Source: an uncultured Anaerococcus sp.
GTDB taxonomy: Bacteria; Bacillota; Clostridia; Tissierellales; Peptoniphilaceae
Assembly: GCA_943914475.1 (NCBI GenBank)
Contig: CALUCE010000005.1
Span: forward strand, 41,450-105,449
DNA length: 64,000 bases
Direction of reading: 5' to 3'
This document shows, in pieces, positions 9,541 to 47,665 of the stretch. Both the position numbers and the translations under genes were made by a program. The notes under the pieces are model-generated. The model did no database searches. It saw only the letters and a list, made by a program, of their open reading frames with translations, and was not told the DNA's origin. Position 1 is the stretch's first letter; every line of letters starts with the position of its first letter.

Positions 9541-10353
9541 TTAATCTTCTATATCATCTGGACTGACTTCTACTTTCCTATTTAAATAAAAAGTTTGGTC
9601 TTCATAATTATCATCTAAATCACTAGAACTTTCAATATCTCCATAAAGGTTTAAATAATGATCAGAAACAACTCCCTTAAATTTGATAGCAAAGTATATA
9701 ATACATACTACTAGGGCAAATAATAATATGAAACCAAGAGCAACAGTTCCTACCCCTGGACTTCTTGCAAGAAAAACTACAAAAATAATATATAGAAAAA
9801 TAAGTGCCAATATAGGCAAAAGCAAATATATCAACATACTTTTTAAGGTCTTTCCTAATAGTTTAATACCTGTGGAGAATACTTTTTTGAAAGCCTCTAG
9901 AACTGATAGATCCTTGTTTCTAGGATCTCCCACAACAAAGTTGGCATAGTTAGTAATTAAAGAAAAGCCAATAGATAAGACTAGGGAAAGTATATAAAAT
10001 CCATAGGCATCCTTAGAAATATTTAAATTTCCACTTGCACTAGCAAGGCTAGGATCTCCAGCAAGACCTGCTATCTTGTTAATTAAAAATCCAACCACTC
10101 CCAAGAAAATATTTACAAGGACAAAGTTTAAACCTATGTGCTTAATTTGACCAAAATAATCTCCCACACTTCCCATCCTCTTTACCAATAGTCCCCTGCA
10201 GACAGCAAAGTCTATCAAGGCTGTACATATGGCCACAATTATAAATGCAGGATTTTGATAATTTATAAAAGCTATATAGATCCCTGCGGATACTAGGGCA
10301 AATAATAAGTAAAGTATAAAAATTGACGAAGCTTTAAAATCTCTCTTTTTCAT
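9541..10353 (-). CDS. Polytopic membrane protein, paralog B of 8493..9383
   Basis: 270 aa with the same blocks (FAVCRGLLVKRMG, YANFVVGDPRNKDLSVLEAFKKVFSTG, SDHYLNLYGD). An acidic tail and its own RBS are present. A hairpin plus T-run lies between the two paralogs at about 9505-9535. Confidence 0.6.
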   Translation of the reverse strand: MKKRDFKASSIFILYLLFALVSAGIYIAFINYQNPAFIIVAICTALIDFAVCRGLLVKRMGSVGDYFGQIKHIGLNFVLVNIFLGVVGFLINKIAGLAGDPSLASASGNLNISKDAYGFYILSLVLSIGFSLITNYANFVVGDPRNKDLSVLEAFKKVFSTGIKLLGKTLKSMLIYLLLPILALIFLYIIFVVFLARSPGVGTVALGFILLFALVVCIIYFAIKFKGVVSDHYLNLYGDIESSSDLDDNYEDQTFYLNRKVEVSPDDIED

Positions 10354-32713: not shown

Positions 32714-34414
32714 ATGAAAGATCCAAGAGATAAAAATAAGATAGAAAATCCACTTGATTCAAGAAACGCCAGTGTTCACAGCAAAGAGCTTAGAAGAGCT
32801 GGTGGACAAAGGGTTGCAAACAACGAAGATTCCCTTACAGCAGGAAAAAGAGGCCATATTTCTGTCCAAAATCTTTGGCTATTCGAAAAACATGCCCACT
32901 TTAATAGAGAAGTTATCCCAGAAAGAAGGATGCATGCCAAGGGCTGGGGAGCTTGGGGAGAATTTACTGTAACCAATGATATTAGTAAATACACCAGGGC
33001 CAAAATTTTCCAAGAAGTTGGCAAGAAGACTAAGATCTTCTCCCGTATGTCAACTGTTGCCGGAGAACGTGGTGCAGCAGATGCAGAAAGAGATATCCGT
33101 GGCTTTGCCCTTAGGTTTTATACAGAAGATGGAAATTGGGATATAGTAGGAAACAATACCCCAGTATTCTTCTTTAGAGATCCTATGAAATTTATAGACC
33201 TAAACCACGCTATAAAAAGAGATCCTCACACTCACCTAAGAAGCCCAAATTCAAACTGGGACTTTTGGACTTCCCTACCAGAATCACTCTCGCAAGTAAC
33301 CATAACCATGTCTGACAGGGGTATACCATCATCCTTTAGGTATATGCACGGATTTGGTTCCCATACCTATTCCATGATAAACAAAGATGGAGTCCGCCAT
33401 TGGGTAAAATACCACTTTAGAAGTCAACAAGGTATACAAAACTGGACCGACCAAGAAGCAGAATATATAGTTTCAAAAGACAGAGAATCATCCGGTCGTG
33501 ACCTTTATTCAGCCATAGAAACAGGAGACTATCCAAAATGGAAGATGTATAGCCAAGTTATGACCGAAGAAGAAGCAGAAAAAACTTCCTTCAACCCATT
33601 TGACTTAACCAAGATGTGGCCAAAAAAAGACTTTCCACTTATAGAAGTTGGAGAATATGAACTAAACAAGGTTCCAGACAACTTCTTCCAAGATGTGGAA
33701 CAAGCAGCCTTCTCCCCTGCCAATATAGTAGACGGTGTAGGCCTATCCCCTGACAGAATGCTCCAACTAAGACCCTTTGCCTATGGAGATGCCCAAAGAT
33801 ATAGGCTGGGTGTAAACCACCACCAAATCCCTGTAAACAAGCCTTTGGGAGTTGAAAATCCTCATGACTTCCATAGGGATGGACAAATGAGAGTTGACGG
33901 TAACAAGGGAGATGAAATCCACTATGGACCAAACTCCTATGGAGCCTGGCAAGATGATACATCTTTGGAAGCTGTGGTAGATAAGGGCGGAGATGTAAAA
34001 AGATATGACTTTAGAAAAGACGACCACGATTACTTCTCCCAAGTAGGCGATCTTTTCAGAAACATGACCGAGGACCAACAATTGGTTCTTTGTGAAAACA
34101 CTGCAAGAAATATGGAAGATTCAACCATGCAAATCAAACACCGCCACATAGCCAATACCTACCAAGCAGACCCAGAGTACGGAAAAGGTGTTGCCAAGGC
34201 CCTAGGCATAGATATAGATACAGTAGATCTCGAAAGAAATTACGATTCTAGAGAAGAATGGGAAAAATCCTTAGCCAAGGACAAAGACTTAGACTACCCA
34301 ACAGAAAAAGCCATGCCAGAAAGTGCCAAGGACCTTCCAGAAGAAGGAAGAGACACAAACGTAGACGATCCAAAAACTTTGTCAGATCCTTATGATGATC
34401 CTTATCTTCTATAG
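32714..34414 (+). CDS. katA: Monofunctional heme catalase
   Basis: 566 aa containing [22 protein letters not shown] (distal His region) and [12 protein letters not shown]. The size matches a typical clade-3-like core with a C-terminal extension. Confidence 0.9.
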
Positions 34415-38537: not shown

Positions 38538-39458
38538 TTATTTCATATATTTATTGATTTTTTCTTCAATATGAATTTGAGAGTATCTTTCTCCTTCAAG
38601 ACTTGATTTTAAGCCATCTAGGGCTTTAAGGTCAAGACTGTCTGAGTATACTTCTATAGCTTTAATTATATCATTTTCTATCCAAAATTTAAAATCAAGG
38701 GGTTTGTTCTTGTGGTAGTATCTTCTTTCTATATGGGCCTTTTCATTTTTTCCATAAATCCATTCATCTTCTGATATTTTTTTGTAGCTAGCTAGCTCTC
38801 CATCTTGATCTTGGTGGGTTTCTTCTTGGGATGAAGGATAAAAATCTTTAAAAGATTCTACCAAATTTTCCTTAAGGGCTTCTATATCCAAGTCCTTGTC
38901 CAGATCCTTAAGATTGCATACCCTAGACCTTACAGACTTAATACCCTTGCCTGTAAATTTGCTAATATCTGGTGTCAGACACTTTTCCAAAACGCTAAGA
39001 TCAAGGTCTACCATCAAGGTTCCATGGACCATAAATTTTTCCTCATCTTCTATAAAGGCCATACCGGAAAACTTCTTCCCATCAACGGTTAGGTCATTTC
39101 TCCCATCAAGTTTTCCTCTAATCTTGGATTTTTCCAAGGCCTTTAAGACTATAGCCATCCACTTGTCCATGTCCTTATTTTTTTGACTTGAAATAAAGGT
39201 AAAGTTTAGGTTACCCAAATCGTGGTAGACTGCTCCTCCTCCAGTAAATCTTCTTACAGGGAGGATATTTTCCTTGTTTATAAATTCTAGGTCAAGCTCT
39301 TGGTAGGCATTTTGGTTTCTTCCCATAACCACACAGGGTGAATTTTGCCAAAGTAGAAAGATTACTTCGTCTTTATCTAGGTTTGTGTAATAGGCATATT
39401 CACTGGCTACGTTTTTATATGGATTAGTAGATTTTAGGTCAATTATTCTGGCTTTCAT
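38538..39458 (-). CDS. lplA: Lipoate-protein ligase A
   Basis: 306 aa with the BPL/LPL catalytic domain (RRFTGGGAVYHDLGNLNFTFI) and the C-terminal LplA domain. Confidence 0.85.
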   Translation of the reverse strand: MKARIIDLKSTNPYKNVASEYAYYTNLDKDEVIFLLWQNSPCVVMGRNQNAYQELDLEFINKENILPVRRFTGGGAVYHDLGNLNFTFISSQKNKDMDKWMAIVLKALEKSKIRGKLDGRNDLTVDGKKFSGMAFIEDEEKFMVHGTLMVDLDLSVLEKCLTPDISKFTGKGIKSVRSRVCNLKDLDKDLDIEALKENLVESFKDFYPSSQEETHQDQDGELASYKKISEDEWIYGKNEKAHIERRYYHKNKPLDFKFWIENDIIKAIEVYSDSLDLKALDGLKSSLEGERYSQIHIEEKINKYMK

Positions 39459-41389
39459 TATTGGTGAATACCTCTATCATGGATATCTAGGGCAGCCTCA
39501 TGGATGACTTCTGAAGTCGTAGGGTGGGCAAAGACTGTATGCATGATGTCTTTTGCTCTAAGCTTATTTTTTATGGCAAGGCTTAGGCATGCTATCAGAT
39601 TTGATGCATCTGGTCCTATAATCACACAACCCAAAATCTCATCATCATCTCCTGCCAGCAACTTGATAAAGCCCTTGTTTTCTCCCATGGTCATGGCCTT
39701 GCCATTGGCTGCAAAATCAAAGATTGACTTCTTGTAGGAAATATTTTTTTCCTTAAGTTCTTCTTCCCTGTAGCCAATGCTTGCTATTTCAGGTCTTGTA
39801 TAAACAACCGAAGGAATTTCCTTATCCAAAAGACTTCTTTCATCTCCCAAGATATAGTCCACAGCAAGGATTGCTTCGTGGGAGGCTAGGTGAGCAAGTT
39901 TTAATCTATTTGAAACATCTCCTATGGCAAAGATATGGTCAACTGTAGTCTTTCTGTTTTCATCAACAAGGATATTGCCATTTTTCTCATCAACCATAAC
40001 CCTTGTCTTTTCAAGTCCAAGTCCTTGTGTATTGGCTCTTCTTCCTGTTGCCATAAGGACCTTATCTCCTATGCTTGATAAGACTTTGCCGTCTTTTTCA
40101 TAGGTAACTATATATTTTCCTTCTATACTTTCTTTTATAGAGGTAACCTTGGCAGAAGTTGAAACTCTAATATCCTTTTCTTCACAAATTCTTTCCATTT
40201 CACTTCCACAGTCCTTATCAAACATAGGAAGTAGCGAGTCTTGGTATTCTATGATATGAACTTGGGATCCAAAGGTTTTAAAGATTGAGGCAAATTCAAG
40301 TCCTATTACCCCTCCACCTATAACTAGGAGAGTCTCTGGAATCTCCTTTAAATCAAGGGCTTCTGTAGAAGTAATGACCCCTTTAAGGTCATGGCCCTCA
40401 ATTTTTAGGACGTTTTCATTTGAGCCAGTTGCTATAATAATATTTTTGGCTTCTATTATAGTAGAACCAACCTTAACTCTTTTATCATCCAAAAATGATG
40501 CCTGACTCCTTAGCAAGTCGACCTCGTTTTTCTTAAGAAGATGGTCTATACCGGAAACTAGGTTTTCTACTATGCCGTCTTTTCTCTCTACAATCTTAGG
40601 CATATTTGGGGCAAATTCTCTTGGTCCGTCTATGCCAAAGTCTGAAAGCTCTCTTGCCATATCCAAACGGTGGGCTGACTCTACCAGGCTCTTGGTTGGT
40701 ATACAACCAACATTGAGGCAGGTTCCCCCAAGCCTATCTTTTTCTACAAGGGCCACATCAAGTCCGCACTTGGCTCCGTAGATAGCTCCAACATAGCCAC
40801 CTGGGCCTGCTCCTATTACCAGGAGATCTTTTTTGATTATTTTTTCATCTCCTGTCTCTTCCAAAGAAGACTCTTCTGAATTTTCTGAAGCTTGGTTTTC
40901 CCTTGGAGTTTTTAAAATAATGAGTGTTTCTCCAGCGTCCACATCATCTCCTTCTTCATAGAGGATTCTATCAACAAGGCCTGACTCACTTGCCTTTATT
41001 TCCCTATTGCCCTTGGCTGTTTCCACATGGCAAAGGACCTGACCTTTTTCTACCTTTTGGCCTACTTCTATTTCAATTTTCCCCAAGCTGTGGGTTTTCT
41101 TGCCAGGAATTATAGGCACCTTGATTTCTACTAGGTCAAAGTCTAAAGTTTGTTTTTCTACTTCCTCTAAGATAAGAAGAGTATCTCCAACCAAAATCTG
41201 GTCTCCTTCTTCTACAAGGATTTTCTCTACTATACCATCTCCACTTGCCTTTATTTCTCTATTGCCCTTGGCTGTTTCCACATGGCAAAGCAGGTCTCCC
41301 TCTGCCACTTTTTGGCCTACTTCTACTTCAATTTTCCCCATCAAATGATTTTTTTTACCTGGTATAACAGGCACTTTTATTTCAATCAT
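39458..41389 (-). CDS. Dihydrolipoyl dehydrogenase (E3) fused to two N-terminal lipoyl domains
   Basis: There are two lipoyl-domain repeats of about 75 aa, each carrying the candidate lipoyl-lysine motif CHVETAKGNREIKAS. Then come an FAD GxGxxG (VIGAGPGGYVGA), the redox-active CxxxxC (GGTCLNVGCIP), an NAD-binding domain and the dimerisation HPT motif (AHPTTSEV). Confidence 0.88.
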   Translation of the reverse strand: MIEIKVPVIPGKKNHLMGKIEVEVGQKVAEGDLLCHVETAKGNREIKASGDGIVEKILVEEGDQILVGDTLLILEEVEKQTLDFDLVEIKVPIIPGKKTHSLGKIEIEVGQKVEKGQVLCHVETAKGNREIKASESGLVDRILYEEGDDVDAGETLIILKTPRENQASENSEESSLEETGDEKIIKKDLLVIGAGPGGYVGAIYGAKCGLDVALVEKDRLGGTCLNVGCIPTKSLVESAHRLDMARELSDFGIDGPREFAPNMPKIVERKDGIVENLVSGIDHLLKKNEVDLLRSQASFLDDKRVKVGSTIIEAKNIIIATGSNENVLKIEGHDLKGVITSTEALDLKEIPETLLVIGGGVIGLEFASIFKTFGSQVHIIEYQDSLLPMFDKDCGSEMERICEEKDIRVSTSAKVTSIKESIEGKYIVTYEKDGKVLSSIGDKVLMATGRRANTQGLGLEKTRVMVDEKNGNILVDENRKTTVDHIFAIGDVSNRLKLAHLASHEAILAVDYILGDERSLLDKEIPSVVYTRPEIASIGYREEELKEKNISYKKSIFDFAANGKAMTMGENKGFIKLLAGDDDEILGCVIIGPDASNLIACLSLAIKNKLRAKDIMHTVFAHPTTSEVIHEAALDIHDRGIHQ

Positions 41390-42866: not shown

Positions 42867-43805
42867 TTACCTGTCTTTTAGTTTTGTATAGTCTTTTAGC
42901 ACACTTATGGACTTATAGGCAGGTCTTATAATCTTCTTATCTTGAATTTGCTCAAGTCTGTGGGCACACCAGCCACTCATCCTTGACACGGAAAAAAGTG
43001 GTGTGTAGAGTTCTTCTGGAATTTTAAGCATCTTATAAACAAAGCCTGAATACATATCGACATTGGCACAGGCTGGATAGGCCTTATCAAACCTTTCTTG
43101 AACAAGCCTTCCTCCAATTTTTTCTACCCTTTCTATAAAGGCAAATTCCTCTACTTTTCCAGTTTTCTCTGCAAGGATTTTGGCTTGTTTTTTTAATAAA
43201 ATCGCCCTAGGATCTGATAGGGTATAGACAGCATGACCCAGGCCATATATCAAGCCCTTTTGGTCAAAGGCCTTGGCATCTAATATTTTTACTAGATAGT
43301 CTGTAAGCTTTTCATCATCATTTATATCACCGATATTTTCTTCTATGTTCCTTAGCATTTGGGCAACTTTTAAATTGGCACCACCGTGGCGGGGTCCCTT
43401 AAGAGAAGCAAGGCCTGCTGCTATGGAAGAGTAGGTATCGGTGCCTGAGGATGAAACCACATGGGTGGCAAAGGCTGAGTTATTTCCTCCACCATGCTCT
43501 GCATGGACTATCAAAAGTAGGTCTAGTATCTTCGCCTCAAGGTCTGAAAAATCATCCTCATCCCTAATCAGGTGGAGTATATTTTCTGCTATGGACTTAT
43601 CTTCATAGGGATAGTGAATATATAGAGACTTGCCATCTATATAGTGTTTTTTAGCTTGGTAGGAGTAGGCCATAGTTCCTGTAGAATCTTGAGTAAGAGT
43701 TTGGTCTATTTTTATTGCAATTTCACTACCAGCCTTTAAATCGCCCTTTAAAAGATGGTCTTGTAAAATTTTCATAGCTAGTGATTTTCCCATAAAAACC
43801 TCCAT
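42867..43805 (-). CDS. Citrate-synthase-family protein, unusually short (312 aa)
   Basis: The C-terminal two-thirds align with citrate synthase catalytic blocks: HAEHGGGNNSAF, LKGPRHGGANLKV, GLGHAVYTLSDPRA, ANVDMYSGFVY and FSVSRMSGWCAHRLEQ. The N-terminal region is about 90 aa shorter than in CitZ-type enzymes. Confidence 0.7.
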   Translation of the reverse strand: MEVFMGKSLAMKILQDHLLKGDLKAGSEIAIKIDQTLTQDSTGTMAYSYQAKKHYIDGKSLYIHYPYEDKSIAENILHLIRDEDDFSDLEAKILDLLLIVHAEHGGGNNSAFATHVVSSSGTDTYSSIAAGLASLKGPRHGGANLKVAQMLRNIEENIGDINDDEKLTDYLVKILDAKAFDQKGLIYGLGHAVYTLSDPRAILLKKQAKILAEKTGKVEEFAFIERVEKIGGRLVQERFDKAYPACANVDMYSGFVYKMLKIPEELYTPLFSVSRMSGWCAHRLEQIQDKKIIRPAYKSISVLKDYTKLKDR

Positions 43806-43904
43806 TTAGTAACTTAATGCTTTAATACGTTATAATGTAATATTATATTACATTTATTCTCTATACTCAAGCTCAAGGTTCAGTCCCTTTCCTAAAATTG
43901 CTAT

Positions 43905-43940
43905 CAAAAAAACTGAAAGCCTAAACTTTCAGTTTTTTAA
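43905..43940 (-). terminator. Terminator of the nrfA-ccsBA operon
   Basis: ACTGAAAG...CTTTCAGT with T-runs on both strands, immediately after the ccsA stop. Confidence 0.7.
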
Positions 43941-43942
43941 AT

Positions 43943-44755
43943 CTATACATATGAATGCAAGCTTGGTAGGAAGGTATTTACTCCTATGTAGGTAAAGAGA
44001 ACTGCTATAAAGCCAATGATACAAAACCAAGCTGACTTTTTATCGGCAAGTCCCTTAGATCTTCTAAGGTGAAGGTAAAGAGTATAAATTATCCAGGTTA
44101 CTAAGGACCAGGTTTCCTTAGGATCCCAGGCCCAGTATCTTCCCCAAGATTTTTTAGCCCAAAGGGCTCCTGTAACTATGGTCATGGATAGGAATAAAAA
44201 TCCTACAAGTACTGCCCTGTAAGTTATCTCATCTAATTTTTCCTTGGAAGGAAGTCTAGCGTCCTTGGATTCTTTCTTATCTTGGATAAGAAACATAAGA
44301 GATGTTCCTGTGGCAACTGCAAAAGATCCATAGGAAAGGATGGCAAGACTAACGTGGATTACCAGCCACCAAGATTTTAAAGCTGGCATCAAGGGTTGGA
44401 TTTCTTTATTTCTTAAGGCTGCATAGCCTATAACTATTAAGAGTAAGGGAACTACAAAGGTACCCATGGAATAGTACTTGTACTTTTTTTCAAAAATTAT
44501 TAAAAATAAGGCTATGCCCCAGGCAAAGGCTGTTGCAAACTCATATTGGTTGGTTAAGGGTACTCTTTTTGATGCTATACCCCTAACAATAATGGCGATG
44601 GTATGGATAATAAAGGCAACCATCAAAACATTTTGAGCCCTTGTCCCTATTTTTTCGCTCTTATTTATATAGGAAAAAAAGTAGAGGACCATAGTTAGGG
44701 CATAAATAAGTACAGCAAACAAAAACAACTTATCTTCTACTTGCACTAAATTCAT
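43943..44755 (-). CDS. ccsA: Cytochrome c biogenesis protein CcsA/ResC (System II heme handling)
   Basis: 270 aa with the WWD domain (WGRYWAWDPKETWSLVTW) and conserved His residues. Confidence 0.85.
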   Translation of the reverse strand: MNLVQVEDKLFLFAVLIYALTMVLYFFSYINKSEKIGTRAQNVLMVAFIIHTIAIIVRGIASKRVPLTNQYEFATAFAWGIALFLIIFEKKYKYYSMGTFVVPLLLIVIGYAALRNKEIQPLMPALKSWWLVIHVSLAILSYGSFAVATGTSLMFLIQDKKESKDARLPSKEKLDEITYRAVLVGFLFLSMTIVTGALWAKKSWGRYWAWDPKETWSLVTWIIYTLYLHLRRSKGLADKKSAWFCIIGFIAVLFTYIGVNTFLPSLHSYV

Positions 44756-45780
44756 TTACTAACCTCTTTTCTTTTTGGACCTAAAAATACTATAAAGGTC
44801 CCTAGCATAAAGACTAAGGCTCCAAGTCCTGTAAGGAGCTCAAATCTGTCATTTCTAATATCTATAATTGTGTAGTAGTCAGGCTTGGTAAACTCAACTT
44901 GGTAGAGTCCTACCCTTACCTTATCACCTACTTCAGCAAGGTCGGTTTTGACAGGCATGGTTCCAAGATAGGCTGTATATTCTATAAGTGGATTTTTTAT
45001 TATCTTAGAATTATTAACTTTTTCCCCGTCTTTTTCTACTACATCAGGATAAAACTTGTTTAGCTTTATGGTTACCTTGGCATCATCTGCAGAAATATAT
45101 TCATTTTCCAAAAGTGCAGCCTGGCCTATTTCTTCATCTGCCTTATAAACCTTGGCATCTACATAGTAACCATAAGAGCTTTGAGAAAATTGATAGCCAT
45201 TTACAGTCATAGGATGGTTTACAGAAATTTCTCCCTGGTCGATGAGGTTTTTGTCATCATCATAAAACTTTACCTTACTTTGGTATTGGTCTACGTGCCC
45301 ATCTTCTGTAAGGAGGATATCAAAATCCAAGATTTCTATATTTAAATCTGTATCCTCAACCTTATTTATAGTATTTTTTACATTATAAACTCGACTTTGA
45401 TATGCTGTAGCATTGCCAATAACAAAAAATAAAATAATCAATATCAAGCCCAAATGCAAAAGCCACAAACCTATGTAATATGAACCTTCTTTAAATCTTT
45501 TTTCCTTAAAGATTTTTATCAGTGGCTTTACTTTTACAACTATACAAAAAAAGATTGATAGGGATAAGAAAATCGCTATTAATAAATACCACCAAGAAGT
45601 ATATACCTGGTCAAACTTCAAAAAAGTAATCACATTTCCAAAGTTTTGGTAGGCTTTTTGGTAAAATTCTGGGTCTTGGTTTTGGGGTATAAGACTTCCT
45701 ATAATAGAAGCTAGCATCAAGACAATAAGAATTATTATAGCAAACTTCATTGATGATAAAACTTTTTTTATCTTCTTCAA
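44752..45780 (-). CDS. ccsB: Cytochrome c biogenesis protein CcsB/ResB (short form)
   Basis: 342 aa with N-terminal TM helices in the ResB pattern (FAIIILIVLMLASIIGSLIPQ) and a large extracytoplasmic domain. It overlaps ccsA by 4 bp. Confidence 0.7.
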   Translation of the reverse strand: MKKIKKVLSSMKFAIIILIVLMLASIIGSLIPQNQDPEFYQKAYQNFGNVITFLKFDQVYTSWWYLLIAIFLSLSIFFCIVVKVKPLIKIFKEKRFKEGSYYIGLWLLHLGLILIILFFVIGNATAYQSRVYNVKNTINKVEDTDLNIEILDFDILLTEDGHVDQYQSKVKFYDDDKNLIDQGEISVNHPMTVNGYQFSQSSYGYYVDAKVYKADEEIGQAALLENEYISADDAKVTIKLNKFYPDVVEKDGEKVNNSKIIKNPLIEYTAYLGTMPVKTDLAEVGDKVRVGLYQVEFTKPDYYTIIDIRNDRFELLTGLGALVFMLGTFIVFLGPKRKEVSK

Positions 45781-45851
45781 ATATTTCTCCTAATCTTAAA
45801 AGGGCTGTGAAGCCCTCATACTTATAAGTATTTAGTCACAGCCCCTCACTT

Positions 45852-47150
45852 TTAAAGATCTTTTATAATATCATTTCCCTTGTTGATTAGCTCTTCTGAG
45901 TGGTCTAGGTATTTTAGAGCTTTCTTTTGGTTGTGGAAACCTTCAGAGTTCTCTACAAATACATAATCCCAGTAGAATTGAGCTTCTCTTTGGATATCTT
46001 GTAGGTCTTCCTTGGTCTTTTGATCCAAGTTACCTTCTTCAATCAAGATTTGTAGGTCCTTGATATAGGCTTCTAAAGCCTCTCCTACTGAATCTGTTTT
46101 TTCTACAACTGGCTTTTGGATACTTTCTGCAAGTTTTACTATTTCTTCTGCAGTTTGATCCTTGTGGCATTGTAGGCAGGATTCTTCAGGAGTCTTCAAA
46201 GGACTTGTCCAGTGGTGAGATGAGATCTTTTCTCCATCTTCTTCAACTTGTGGCATATGGCATGTTAGACAATCAAGGCCTGCGATTTGGTGAACTGAAC
46301 CATAGTAGGTTTCTGTCTCTGGGTGTTGGGCCTTTAAGACCTTGGCACCTGTAAGCTCGTGTTCCCAATCATAGAAGCCATCTTTTTGGTAATAAGCATA
46401 GGCTTCGTCAGCTCCAAGTCCCTCAGTCCATGGAAGTTTGACTGTTTTTTCATCAGGAGTCATGTAATATTCAACGTGACATTGGGCACAAGCTAGCATA
46501 GACCCATCAAGGTAGTCTTCAGCTGGATTGTTTTCTAGATGATCTTTCAAGTGTTGTCTGTTAATTTGAACCTTGCCTGGTGTATCCCCATGACAGTCGT
46601 AGCAAGTAAAGCCAACTATATCATGGCTTTTTACATACTCATCAAAGTCCATAGCAGAAAGACTAGGATCATCTACAAGCTCTTCGTTGAAGATTGAAAC
46701 CTTACAAGCAAGACAAGATGCACCAGCCTTAGGCCTTTTGGTGTTTATAACATCATCCAAGGCATAAACGTGACCCCTTGCTCTGTCGTATTGTTTTTCA
46801 AAACCGTAACCCTTATAGAAGGTCTTAAGGTATGGGTATTCTTTCAAATAATCTACTTGAACAGACCCTCCATATGTAGTTTTTTCCATTTCGCTATTTT
46901 TTTCAAAAGAATGAACATGTTCTGGGAAAGCTTCCTCATAGTCTTCCACAGGAGCTATGTCCTTAGGAAAGTCCTTAGTAGCAACAACCTTATTGTCTTC
47001 ATCGCTTGAAGTAACTTCGCTTGATGTAACTTCTGTAGAAGCTTCATTTGAAGGTTGATTTTCCGGAGCTTTATCTTGATTTCCACATCCATTCACTAAG
47101 AAAATAGCCAAAGCTAAAGTAAGTAAAGGAAATTGTTTTCTTATTTTCAT
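45852..47150 (-). CDS. nrfA: Pentaheme cytochrome c nitrite reductase NrfA (cytochrome c552), lipoprotein form
   Basis: It has one CxxCK (CLACK) and four CxxCH motifs (CYDCH, CAQCHVEYY, CLTCH, CLQCH). The N-terminal lipobox reads LVNGC. Confidence 0.88.
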   Translation of the reverse strand: MKIRKQFPLLTLALAIFLVNGCGNQDKAPENQPSNEASTEVTSSEVTSSDEDNKVVATKDFPKDIAPVEDYEEAFPEHVHSFEKNSEMEKTTYGGSVQVDYLKEYPYLKTFYKGYGFEKQYDRARGHVYALDDVINTKRPKAGASCLACKVSIFNEELVDDPSLSAMDFDEYVKSHDIVGFTCYDCHGDTPGKVQINRQHLKDHLENNPAEDYLDGSMLACAQCHVEYYMTPDEKTVKLPWTEGLGADEAYAYYQKDGFYDWEHELTGAKVLKAQHPETETYYGSVHQIAGLDCLTCHMPQVEEDGEKISSHHWTSPLKTPEESCLQCHKDQTAEEIVKLAESIQKPVVEKTDSVGEALEAYIKDLQILIEEGNLDQKTKEDLQDIQREAQFYWDYVFVENSEGFHNQKKALKYLDHSEELINKGNDIIKDL

Positions 47151-47338
47151 TTTTCCACCCCGCTTTCTCTTTATTATTCTTACATCTTCATTATAGCATA
47201 ATTTTTTTATATATTGGCAAAATATTTACAAGTTATTGTGACTATTTATTTTATTCTAATGAAATATATGGTAAAAATCTTTAACTTAGATAGCTTTATT
47301 GGCTTATTTCATTTATAATAAGTAAAAGAGGAGGACCT

Positions 47339-47635
47339 ATGGCCAATAGTATAGAAAAAAAGAAAAAAATCCTATCAGCTATGTTTGATATTTATATAAA
47401 AAAACACCAAGAAGAAAAAGAAAACATTTGCTCCCTCAGGGACTATGCCTTCCAAAGGATAGAAAAATGTCCCAACAATGGCAAAAAAATCTACTGTTCT
47501 TCTTGTACCATCCATTGTTTTGCAGACAATGAAAGAGCCTACATAAAAAAAGTCATGCGTTTTTCTGGTCCCAGGATGATGGTCTACCATCCTCTTATGG
47601 CCTTGGACCATGCTTTTAGCTCTATTAGAGGATAA
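47339..47635 (+). CDS. YgbA-like nitrous-oxide-stimulated-promoter family protein (small Cys-rich)
   Basis: 98 aa reading ...CPNNGKKIYCSSCTIHCFADNERAYIKKVMRFSGPRMMVYHPLMALDH, which matches the family pattern (C..C..HC ... YIK.VM...GPRMM.HP). The RBS is AGGAGGA. It is transcribed divergently from nrfA. Confidence 0.6.
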   Translation: MANSIEKKKKILSAMFDIYIKKHQEEKENICSLRDYAFQRIEKCPNNGKKIYCSSCTIHCFADNERAYIKKVMRFSGPRMMVYHPLMALDHAFSSIRG

Positions 47636-47665
47636 AAATAAGCCCCGACCGGGGCTATTTTTTTG
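47636..47665. terminator. Bidirectional terminator
   Basis: AGCCCCGaccGGGGCT followed by ATTTTTTTG. Confidence 0.8.

What the first reader, a model, noticed from the sequence alone, without database searches (positions are those of the whole stretch)
43943..47665. Lipoprotein pentaheme NrfA with dedicated CcsBA maturation genes but no NrfH/NrfBCD partner, divergent from a YgbA-like NO-stress gene
The nrfA ORF has the diagnostic CxxCK active-site heme motif plus four CxxCH motifs and a lipobox (LVNGC). It would therefore be lipid-anchored on the outer face of the membrane of a Gram-positive cell. Immediately downstream, overlapping by 4 bp, are short-form ccsB (resB) and ccsA. These form a private System II cytochrome c maturation pathway for what may be the only c-type cytochrome here. 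No NrfH (tetraheme, about 150 aa) or NrfBCD genes flank it, and no other CxxCH-rich ORF exists in the window, so the physiological electron donor is unexplained. The YgbA-like (nitrous-oxide-stimulated-promoter family) gene, which is typically NsrR-controlled, is transcribed divergently from the same 190-bp intergenic region. This suggests the locus serves nitrite/NO detoxification rather than respiratory ammonification.
Basis: partly seen in the sequence, partly recalled or inferred. Interest (0 to 1): 0.6.

Follow-up and report, generated by a model that had tools for sequence, protein, structure and literature searches.

The report
Lipid-anchored nitrite reductase lacking known partner
A skin-associated Gram-positive anaerobe (family Peptoniphilaceae) carries a normal-looking ammonia-forming nitrite reductase tethered to the outside of its membrane, next to its own heme-attachment genes but without either known electron-donor partner; this layout is shared by its whole bacterial class, so how the enzyme gets its electrons is an open question.

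Summary
Window 45852-47150(-) encodes a genuine NrfA with CLACK plus four CxxCH motifs. All catalytic, calcium-binding and distal-histidine residues are invariant, and the predicted fold matches Desulfovibrio NrfA (TM 0.80). Downstream lie a short ResB/CcsB (44752-45780) and CcsA (43943-44755). A YgbA_NO gene (47339-47635) is divergent across 188 bp. No other multiheme ORF exists in the 64 kb.

The layout is typical of the clade. In 23 related loci (Peptoniphilaceae, Anaerococcus, Tissierella, Gudongella and others) no NrfH-like ORF lies within up to 10 kb. The nearest NrfH-using relatives (Syntrophomonadaceae) have nrfH-nrfA-ccsB-ccsA.

A dedicated maturation pair is well supported. "Detoxification, not respiration" and NsrR control are not shown: no NsrR or HcpR2 site lies in the intergenic region, although NO-stress-type neighbours recur near nrfA.

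Lipoprotein NrfA in Firmicutes and partner-less NrfA in other gut taxa were already noted in the literature. I rate this a new variant of a known kind, of moderate interest. Whether a donor is encoded elsewhere in the genome could not be tested.

New details: a terminator-like hairpin after nrfA recurs in the six other loci tested, and this strain's lipobox has an atypical Asn at position -2.

The parts
45852..47150 (-). nrfA: pentaheme cytochrome c nitrite reductase (432 aa), ammonia-forming, calcium-type active site
   Evidence: PF02335 E=8e-87. Best solved relative is D. vulgaris NrfA (2vr0/2j7a), E=5e-51. AlphaFold model has pLDDT 83; Foldseek TM 0.80 to 2j7a. C146, C149, K150, H127, Y228, Y229, K273, Q275, H276, H287, H312, H406 and four CxxCH motifs are invariant in 37 homologues; R125 and E227 are conserved in at least 90%.
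47085..47150 (-). Lipoprotein-type signal peptide (residues 1-22: MKIRK, hydrophobic core, LVNGC); Cys22 is the presumed lipidation site
   Evidence: Read directly from the sequence. A lipobox Cys occurs at the aligned position in 108 of 120 homologues. This strain has Asn at -2 where its closest relatives have Thr.
46953..47084 (-). Acidic, Ser/Thr-rich disordered tether (about residues 23-66) between the lipid anchor and the catalytic domain
   Evidence: pLDDT is below 50 for residues 18-58. Tether length ranges from about 5 to about 50 residues among homologues.
46701..46715 (-). Codons for the CLACK active-site heme motif (residues 146-150)
47190..47220 (-). Promoter-like elements for nrfA: extended -10 TGCTATAAT (47198-47190) and TTGCCA (47220-47215) with a 19-nt spacer
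   Evidence: Read from the sequence. The TATG[C/T]TATAATG..TGTAAGA block is conserved with L001. This is an inference only; no transcript data exist.
45799..45847 (-). Intercistronic GC-rich hairpin followed by UUUU, directly after the nrfA stop codon; partial-terminator or stabiliser candidate
   Evidence: Folding energy -23.2 kcal/mol, z=-4.3, 0 of 200 shuffles as stable. An analogous hairpin plus U-run sits after nrfA in L001, L002, L004, L006, L009 and L012.
44752..45780 (-). ccsB (ResB-like, short form, 342 aa): four predicted TM helices with a roughly 180-aa outward loop; His109 is invariant
   Evidence: PF05140 E=5e-40. H109 is invariant in 14 sequences. The N-terminal MKKIxKxLSSMxFA is conserved, which supports the TTG start over the ATG used by gene callers, 30 nt downstream.
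43943..44755 (-). ccsA (ResC-type heme-handling subunit, 270 aa) with the WWD domain (W199-T215) and His134, His229, His267
   Evidence: TIGR03144 scores 259 bits against cut-off 187.6. PF01578 E=9e-54. Invariant residues are listed. The 4-bp overlap with ccsB is shown.
43903..43942 (-). Intrinsic terminator after ccsA (A-run, 8-bp core stem, U7)
   Evidence: Folding energy -15.4 kcal/mol, z=-4.0, 0 of 200 shuffles as stable.
47339..47635 (+). ygbA-like gene (YgbA_NO family, 98 aa, Cys-rich), divergent from nrfA
   Evidence: PF11756 E=1.8e-28; NF007714 scores 93 bits against cut-off 88. The same divergent pairing occurs in L001, L012 and L030.
47641..47656 (.). Bidirectional terminator between ygbA and the convergent Fe-ADH gene; it isolates the nrfA promoter region from upstream transcription

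Best explanation
The locus is a three-gene module, nrfA-ccsB-ccsA, in an uncultured Peptoniphilaceae bacterium seen in human skin metagenomes.

Shown:
- NrfA has every sequence and fold feature of a calcium-type, Lys-ligated, ammonia-forming cytochrome c nitrite reductase.
- It has a lipoprotein-type signal peptide followed by a disordered tether.
- CcsB and CcsA carry the WWD domain and the conserved histidines of a System II cytochrome c synthase.
- The module is conserved across Tissierellia without any NrfH or NrfB nearby.
- A terminator-like hairpin follows nrfA in all seven loci tested.

Inferred:
- CcsBA exports heme and attaches it to all five sites of NrfA, including CxxCK, on the outer face of the membrane.
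- NrfA stays tethered there by its lipid anchor and reduces nitrite (and NO or hydroxylamine) to ammonium.
- The hairpin lets nrfA be expressed more strongly than ccsBA.
- Electrons come from a membrane donor that is not linked to nrfA and is probably not a classical adjacent NrfH or NrfBCD.
- In this fermentative organism the enzyme serves mainly as a nitrite/NO-removing electron sink. It is probably co-regulated with the divergent nitrosative-stress-family gene ygbA, by a regulator that was not identified.
For: - Identity of the parts.
- No second multiheme ORF in the window, nor in 23 related loci.
- The nearest NrfH-using relatives have nrfH immediately upstream of the same nrfA-ccsB-ccsA order (L017-L020). 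Adjacency is therefore the norm where NrfH is used, and nrfH is specifically missing here.
- Clade members anchored by a TM helix instead of a lipobox also lack nrfH.
- nrfA-ccsB-ccsA is the only conserved neighbourhood.
- NO/nitrite-type neighbours recur: ygbA in four species-level loci, DUF438-hemerythrin-PAS in L014, and a CRP/FNR regulator directly upstream in L002, L004, L005 and L011.
- Hairpins and terminators.
- Organism and habitat.
- Published reviews list only NrfH and NrfBCD as donor systems (PMC8840924, PMC12285233).
Against: - Absence of a NapC/NrfH/CymA-type donor was tested only within about 10 kb of nrfA, not genome-wide. Shewanellaceae nrfA lies apart from its membrane-component genes (noted in PMC4257093).
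- Nothing here distinguishes detoxification from energy-conserving respiration.
- No regulator site was found. Footprinting of three sequences showed only promoter-like blocks.
- The -2 Asn in this strain's lipobox is atypical.
- NrfA scores far below the NCBIfam equivalog cut-offs (197 against 595; 150 against 692). It is a divergent subfamily whose activity has never been measured.
- No CcdA or ResA thiol-reduction genes are in the window.
Confidence: 0.6

Rival explanations
1. This is classical quinol-linked respiratory ammonification. A NapC/NrfH/CymA-type tetraheme quinol dehydrogenase is encoded elsewhere in the genome and donates to the lipid-anchored NrfA, as reported for Shewanella.
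For: - There is precedent for an orphan nrfA whose membrane components are encoded at a distance (PMC4257093, discussing Shewanellaceae).
- The best structural and sequence match is the NrfH-dependent D. vulgaris NrfA.
- The Lys before the ISSH motif is conserved. From my own reading of the 2vr0 numbering, this Lys aligns with the D. vulgaris NrfA Lys that ligates NrfH heme 4.
- Genome-wide absence was not tested.
Against: - In all 8 NrfH-using loci sampled, nrfH sits directly upstream of nrfA. In all 24 loci of this clade, including the window, it is missing.
- Placing ccsBA beside nrfA suggests NrfA is the main client of the maturation system.
- No Tissierellia-labelled NrfH appeared in the protein search, although that search was weak.
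Confidence: 0.25
2. There is a third, quinone-independent electron-supply route. Electrons reach NrfA from an outward-facing flavin-based system: a PplA/FMN_bind lipoprotein of flavin-based extracellular electron transfer, an Rnf-type complex, or secreted flavin shuttles.
For: [quoted passage not shown]
- One related locus (L032) has FMN_bind proteins, a flavinylated-type reductase and CcdA/thioredoxin within 8 kb of nrfA.
- The flexible tether of variable length would suit a mobile acceptor.
- No NrfH is found in any locus of the clade.
Against: - No such gene is conserved near nrfA, and none is in the window.
- No biochemical precedent is known to me for flavoprotein-to-NrfA electron transfer.
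- The case is purely circumstantial.
Confidence: 0.12
3. The gene is a decaying or non-functional relic, or it has a main substrate other than nitrite (for example sulfite, or hydroxylamine/NO only).
For: - ccsB is split into two ORFs in L010, L012 and L032.
- An adjacent gene in the window is a deletion chimera.
- From my own knowledge, NrfA enzymes are known to turn over NO, hydroxylamine and sulfite.
Against: - All catalytic and heme-binding residues are invariant over sequences down to 44% identity.
- The identical locus is found on 23 contigs from many samples.
- ccsB and ccsA are intact here, with invariant functional residues.
Confidence: 0.03

Closest known systems
Desulfovibrio vulgaris NrfHA nitrite reductase (PDB 2j7a/2vr0)
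   Same: The catalytic subunit matches: same fold (TM 0.80), CxxCK heme 1, the Arg/Tyr/His catalytic residues, calcium ligands and four distal histidines.
   Different: Here there is no NrfH. NrfA carries its own lipoprotein anchor and tether, lacks about 65 C-terminal residues, and is only about 29% identical. Its own ccsBA lies directly downstream.
Syntrophomonadaceae/Syntrophaceticus nrfH-nrfA-ccsB-ccsA clusters (L017-L020)
   Same: The nrfA-ccsB-ccsA order is the same, with a split short-form System II pair, in Firmicutes.
   Different: Those clusters have a tetraheme NrfH directly upstream, and their NrfA has an uncleaved N-terminal TM helix instead of a lipobox. Identity to the window NrfA is 32-35%.
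Wolinella succinogenes nrfHAIJ, where NrfI is a dedicated CcsBA-type synthase
   Same: A System II heme synthase is encoded with nrfA (PMC12285233).
   Different: From my own knowledge, NrfI is a fused CcsBA specialised for the CxxCK site, alongside other CcsA isoenzymes. Here the pair is split and presumably serves all five sites. NrfH is absent here.
Predicted lipoprotein NrfA of Bacillus azotoformans, B. selenitireducens and Desulfitobacterium hafniense (Heylen & Keltjens 2012, PMC3475470)
   Same: NrfA in Firmicutes is predicted to be lipid-anchored on the outer membrane face.
   Different: B. azotoformans has nrfH adjacent and a System I (ccm) cluster nearby. Here there is no nrfH and the maturation system is System II.
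Partner-less nrfA in Shewanellaceae, and 'extracellular NrfA without membrane components' in Sutterella and Burkholderiales gut genomes (Ravcheev & Thiele 2014, PMC4257093)
   Same: nrfA has no co-located membrane electron-donor genes, and the same open question about the electron source applies.
   Different: These are Gram-negative periplasmic enzymes. From my own knowledge, Shewanella uses CymA. No lipid anchor or adjacent ccsBA is reported for them, and the lineage differs.
Enterobacterial ygbA (NsrR regulon)
   Same: Same protein family (PF11756, NF007714), and it is associated with NO/nitrite-related genes.
   Different: No NsrR-type operator is detectable here. The family's function is unknown in any organism.

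Membership tests
NrfA (ammonia-forming pentaheme cytochrome c nitrite reductase, PF02335) | One CxxCK (Lys-ligated catalytic heme) plus four CxxCH motifs | tested here: met
   CLACK at 146; CxxCH at 183, 221, 294 and 325. Invariant in 37 homologues.
NrfA (ammonia-forming pentaheme cytochrome c nitrite reductase, PF02335) | Catalytic Arg (RGH), Tyr (VEYY) and His (KAQHPE); calcium ligands Glu, Lys and Gln; four distal His residues | tested here: met
   H127, Y228, K273, Q275, H276, H287, H312 and H406 are invariant; R125 and E227 are conserved in at least 90% of sequences. They align to the D. vulgaris residues.
NrfA (ammonia-forming pentaheme cytochrome c nitrite reductase, PF02335) | Profile score above the curated threshold | tested here: met
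   Pfam scores 292 bits against a cut-off of 24.1. The narrower NCBIfam equivalog models are not reached (197 against 595; 150 against 692), so this is a divergent subfamily.
NrfA (ammonia-forming pentaheme cytochrome c nitrite reductase, PF02335) | NrfA fold | tested here: met
   Model pLDDT 83, pTM 0.82. Foldseek TM 0.80 and E=2e-24 to 2j7a. All top 34 hits are penta- or octaheme nitrite reductases.
NrfA (ammonia-forming pentaheme cytochrome c nitrite reductase, PF02335) | Nitrite-to-ammonium activity with covalently bound hemes | not testable with these tools
   Requires biochemistry.
NrfHA complex | A tetraheme NapC/NirT-family NrfH encoded with nrfA | tested here: not met
   No ORF with two or more CxxCH motifs lies near nrfA in the window or in 23 related loci. 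The genome-wide situation was not tested.
NrfABCD system | Pentaheme NrfB, Fe-S NrfC and membrane NrfD encoded with nrfA | tested here: not met
   No second multiheme ORF is present. No NrfC- or NrfD-type Pfam labels appear among the called genes covering most of the window.
System II cytochrome c synthase (CcsBA/ResBC) | CcsA with a WWD domain flanked by conserved His residues, and CcsB with a conserved TM His | tested here: met
   CcsA W199-T215 (WAKKSWGRYWAWDPKET), H134, H229 and H267, and CcsB H109, are invariant in 14-16 sequences. TIGR03144 is above its cut-off. PF05140 and PF01578 match.
System II cytochrome c synthase (CcsBA/ResBC) | Accompanying thiol-reduction arm (CcdA plus a ResA/CcsX thioredoxin) | tested here: not met
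   None is in the window. A CcdA and thioredoxin pair lies 7 kb from nrfA in L032 only. It may be encoded elsewhere or be dispensable.
Bacterial lipoprotein (Lgt/LspA substrate) | Signal peptide ending in a lipobox [LVI][ASTVI][GAS]C | tested here: inconclusive
   The n-region, h-region and Gly-Cys are present, but position -2 is Asn (LVNGC). The closest relatives have LVTGC, and 108 of 120 homologues have a lipobox-type Cys. Lipidation itself cannot be tested here.
YgbA_NO family (PF11756) | Profile match above the curated cut-offs | tested here: met
   PF11756 scores 99.5 bits against cut-off 25. NF007714 scores 93.2 bits against cut-off 88.
   No match with up to 3 mismatches falls in 47151-47338. 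Window-wide counts equal the chance expectation.

The most novel reading that the evidence does not exclude
Tissierellia (Peptoniphilaceae, Anaerococcus, Tissierella) may run their membrane-tethered NrfA without any NapC/NrfH/CymA or NrfBCD quinol dehydrogenase. That would be a third, quinone-independent way of feeding electrons to cytochrome c nitrite reductase. Candidate sources are an outward-facing flavin-based extracellular electron transfer chain or an Rnf-type complex. A single CcsBA pair would then mature both the CxxCH and the CxxCK sites. If so, fermentative Gram-positive skin and gut cocci would be unrecognised nitrite ammonifiers or detoxifiers.
Probability: 0.35. Interest if true: 0.65.

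Novelty: new variant of a known kind. Interest (0 to 1): 0.4.

Why it matters
NrfA biochemistry and the reviews I read recognise only two electron-input systems, NrfH and NrfBCD (PMC8840924, PMC12285233). Here a whole class of Gram-positive anaerobes, including common human skin, wound and gut cocci, keeps an intact NrfA with its own heme-attachment genes but neither partner nearby. If no distant partner exists, the electron-input path is unknown, and it can be tested directly in cultivable Tissierella or Anaerococcus. The finding also bears on how these bacteria might cope with nitrite and NO on skin and mucosa (my inference). It also matters for gene-based DNRA surveys, which may count such organisms from nrfA alone without knowing whether the enzyme is respiratory. 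The component families themselves are ordinary.

Tried and rejected
- NsrR operator and HcpR2 box scans of the window found no site in the intergenic region. NsrR-like matches occur at chance frequency. HcpR2-like matches are enriched window-wide, but none lies near nrfA.
- An inverted-repeat search of 47120-47360 found only AT-rich, 71%-complementary pairs.
- Footprinting of the ygbA-nrfA intergenic regions of the window, L001 and L012 showed only -10/TSS-like blocks shared with L001. Upstream regions of 17 loci share no obvious common operator.
- A protein search with a Syntrophomonadaceae NrfH, meant to find NrfH in Tissierellia, returned only 27 hits, none labelled Tissierellia. It is too insensitive to count as evidence of absence.
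- The idea that lipobox correlates with loss of NrfH was rejected as a rule. TM-anchored members of the same clade also lack NrfH, and B. azotoformans reportedly has both a lipoprotein NrfA and NrfH (PMC3475470).
- The ORF at 3-2579 with two CxxCH motifs is UvrA, not a cytochrome.
- Literature searches for nrfA in Anaerococcus, Tissierella or Peptoniphilaceae found nothing specific.

Full report
**1. What is in the sequence**

- nrfA is at 45852-47150(-) and encodes 432 aa. It hits Pfam Cytochrom_C552 at E=8e-87. It contains CLACK at residues 146-150 and CxxCH at 183, 221, 294 and 325.
- A ResB-like ORF is at 44752-45780(-), 342 aa, with PF05140 E=5e-40.
- A CcsA/ResC ORF is at 43943-44755(-), 270 aa. 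TIGR03144 scores 259 bits against a cut-off of 187.6.
- ccsB and ccsA overlap by 4 bp. nrfA and ccsB are 71 nt apart.
- A 98-aa YgbA_NO family gene is at 47339-47635(+), with PF11756 E=1.8e-28. It is divergent from nrfA across 188 bp.

A six-frame scan found only one other ORF with two or more CxxCH motifs, and it is UvrA. Pfam labels for the called genes of overlapping contigs, which together span most of the window, show no NrfB/C/D, NapC/NirT, Rrf2 or CcdA/ResA genes.

**2. Is it a real NrfA?**

Yes, by every test available here.

- The best solved relative is the NrfH-dependent D. vulgaris NrfA, at E=5e-51.
- In an alignment of 37 homologues down to 44% identity, the functional residues are conserved. 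These are the heme cysteines, Lys150, the RGH Arg/His (R125, at least 90% conserved; H127), the VEYY Glu/Tyr (E227, at least 90% conserved; Y228), the KAQH Lys/Gln/His (K273, Q275, H276) and the distal histidines H287, H312 and H406.
- The enzyme is therefore the calcium-type, not the Geobacter lovleyi Arg-type.
- An AlphaFold model (pLDDT 83) superposes on 2j7a with TM 0.80. Residues 18-58 are disordered.
- The protein scores far below the NCBIfam equivalog cut-offs, so it belongs to a divergent subfamily that has never been characterised.

**3. Anchor**

The N-terminus (MKIRK, hydrophobic stretch, LVNGC) looks like a lipoprotein signal peptide. However, this strain has Asn at position -2. 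The nine other full-length members of its 90%-identity cluster have the canonical LVTGC. Of the 120 nearest homologues, a pattern scan found a lipobox-type Cys in 108 and one further variant (PTGC) was seen by eye, about ten have an uncleaved TM helix instead, and one is an N-terminal truncation. After Cys22 comes an acidic Ser/Thr-rich tether. Its length varies from about 5 to about 50 residues across the clade.

**4. Maturation genes**

CcsA carries the WWD domain (W199-T215) and three invariant histidines (H134, H229, H267). CcsB has four predicted TM helices, a roughly 180-aa external loop, and an invariant TM histidine (H109). Assigning these to the P-His and TM-His roles rests on my knowledge of CcsBA, not on a test here. 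The conserved N-terminal MKKIxKxLSSMxFA supports the TTG start at 45780 rather than the ATG used by gene callers 30 nt downstream.

**5. Transcription anatomy (new)**

- An extended -10 element (TGCTATAAT, 47198-47190) precedes nrfA. It is conserved with L001.
- Directly after the nrfA stop codon is a GC-rich hairpin followed by UUUU. Its folding energy is -23.2 kcal/mol (z=-4.3).
- A comparable hairpin plus U-run sits at the same position in L001, L002, L004, L006, L009 and L012, although the sequences differ.
- A terminator with U7 follows ccsA.
- I infer a strong nrfA transcript with attenuated read-through into ccsBA. This has not been tested.

**6. Organism and distribution**

The exact proteins are on record for an uncultured Peptoniphilaceae MAG, also labelled Anaerococcus sp.. 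The locus occurs identically on 23 contigs read, including human skin metagenomes.

A genome scan found relatives in Peptoniphilaceae, Anaerococcus, Tissierella, Gudongella and unclassified Tissierellia or Bacillota MAGs at 41-74% identity, plus Anaerobacillus at 35%. In the window and 23 related loci (L001-L016, L030-L032, L036-L039) there is no second multiheme ORF within up to 10 kb. Nineteen of these 24 loci have nrfA-ccsB-ccsA.

The next most similar group (Syntrophomonadaceae and Syntrophaceticus, 32-35% identity) has nrfH-nrfA-ccsB-ccsA. More distant hits (Tannerella, Propionibacteriaceae, Campylobacter) also have nrfH immediately upstream wherever upstream sequence is available.

So where NrfH is used it is adjacent, and in this clade it is specifically missing. 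Anchoring type is not the correlate. TM-anchored members of the clade also lack nrfH. The literature reports a lipoprotein NrfA together with NrfH in Bacillus azotoformans (PMC3475470).

**7. Neighbours and regulation**

Apart from ccsBA, nothing is conserved around nrfA. NO- or nitrite-type neighbours do recur, however.

- A divergent ygbA occurs in this species, in L001 (74% NrfA identity), in Tissierella sp. P1 and in T. carlieri.
- A divergent DUF438-hemerythrin-PAS gene occurs in Gudongella.
- A CRP/FNR-family regulator lies directly upstream in L002, L004, L005 and L011.
- A Tll0287-type sensor kinase with a response regulator lies upstream in Anaerobacillus.

These fit nitrite/NO-responsive control. 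They do not separate detoxification from respiration, because respiratory nrf operons are also in HcpR and NsrR regulons (PMC1274295).

**8. The electron donor**

This is the real open point, and I could not resolve it. Three readings remain.

- A NapC/CymA-type gene lies elsewhere in the genome. There is a Shewanellaceae precedent, noted in PMC4257093.
- The route does not involve quinol. Tissierellaceae show flavin- or mediator-assisted extracellular reduction (PMC12501876). One related locus has FMN_bind flavoproteins and CcdA/thioredoxin near nrfA. This evidence is circumstantial.
- The gene is decaying. This is unlikely, given the invariant residues.

**9. Comparison with what is known, and novelty**

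- Every component family is known.
- Lipoprotein NrfA in Firmicutes was predicted in 2012 (PMC3475470).
- NrfA without membrane components was noted in other gut taxa in 2014, with the same unanswered question about the electron source (PMC4257093).
- Reviews still describe only the NrfH and NrfBCD routes (PMC8840924, PMC12285233).
- I found no paper that deals with nrfA in Peptoniphilaceae, Anaerococcus or Tissierella.

I therefore rate this a new variant of a known kind. It is a clade-wide, NrfH-less, self-anchored NrfA with its own split CcsBA and a terminator-like hairpin after nrfA, seen in all seven loci tested. Interest is moderate (0.4). It would rise if whole-genome scans confirm that no NapC-family donor or quinone pathway exists.

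Noticed in passing
window 42867-43805 (-): The ORF just downstream of ccsA is an in-frame chimera. Residues 5-47 match the aconitase N-terminus. The remainder, from about residue 44 on, matches positions 179-448 of the citrate synthase profile. It looks like a deletion scar joining two TCA-cycle genes. The same ORF occurs on other contigs of the species (L027-L029).
   Followed up: partly
window 47085-47096 (-), NrfA residues 19-22: There is a strain polymorphism in the lipobox. This window (and 20 contigs with the identical protein) has LVNGC, while the nine other full-length members of the 90%-identity cluster have LVTGC. Asn at position -2 is unusual for lipoproteins.
   Followed up: partly
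window 45799-47; also L001:11286-11330, L002, L004, L006, L009, L012 after nrfA: A terminator-like GC-rich hairpin plus U-run sits between nrfA and ccsB. It is conserved in position but not in sequence across the clade.
   Followed up: yes
window 32714-34414 (+): A 566-aa heme catalase gene is present in this anaerobic, skin-associated Peptoniphilaceae genome. It implies that the cell has a heme supply.
   Followed up: no
window 39458-41389 (-) and 38538-39458 (-): A dihydrolipoyl dehydrogenase with two N-terminal lipoyl domains is fused in one 643-aa protein. It is followed by a lipoate-protein ligase and a MarR-family regulator.
   Followed up: no
L010:11186-12440, L012:11170-12464, L032:11246-12546: ccsB is split into two ORFs in three related loci. 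This could be a frameshift or stop codon, an assembly error, or early decay. T. carlieri (L030) has it intact.
   Followed up: no
L014:8538-9767 (-): In Gudongella, nrfA has no ccsBA next to it. It is divergent from a DUF438-hemerythrin-PAS_10 protein.
   Followed up: partly
L016:9780-9900; window about 47170-47185; L001 about 9960-9975: The Anaerobacillus nrfA upstream region carries three to four direct repeats of AAAATGTAA(G/A)A. The window and L001 have TGTAAGA just downstream of the -10 box. This may be a shared regulator half-site, or it may be chance in AT-rich DNA.
   Followed up: no
L032:1665-7008: Within 8 kb upstream of an Anaerococcus-type nrfA lie a CcdA (DsbD_TM) and thioredoxin-like pair, a small FMN_bind protein, and a 601-aa FMN_bind plus FAD_binding_2 reductase. 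My reading is that these are an extracytoplasmic thiol-reduction arm and a flavinylated reductase.
   Followed up: no
L005:1263-1970, L002:8693-9559, L004:1570-2247, L011:9091-9765: A CRP/FNR-family regulator gene lies directly upstream of nrfA on the same strand in four Peptoniphilaceae or Tissierellia loci. L005 has a TAACA-N6-TGTTA palindrome and L011 a 7-1-7 palindrome upstream of nrfA. No common box was derived.
   Followed up: partly
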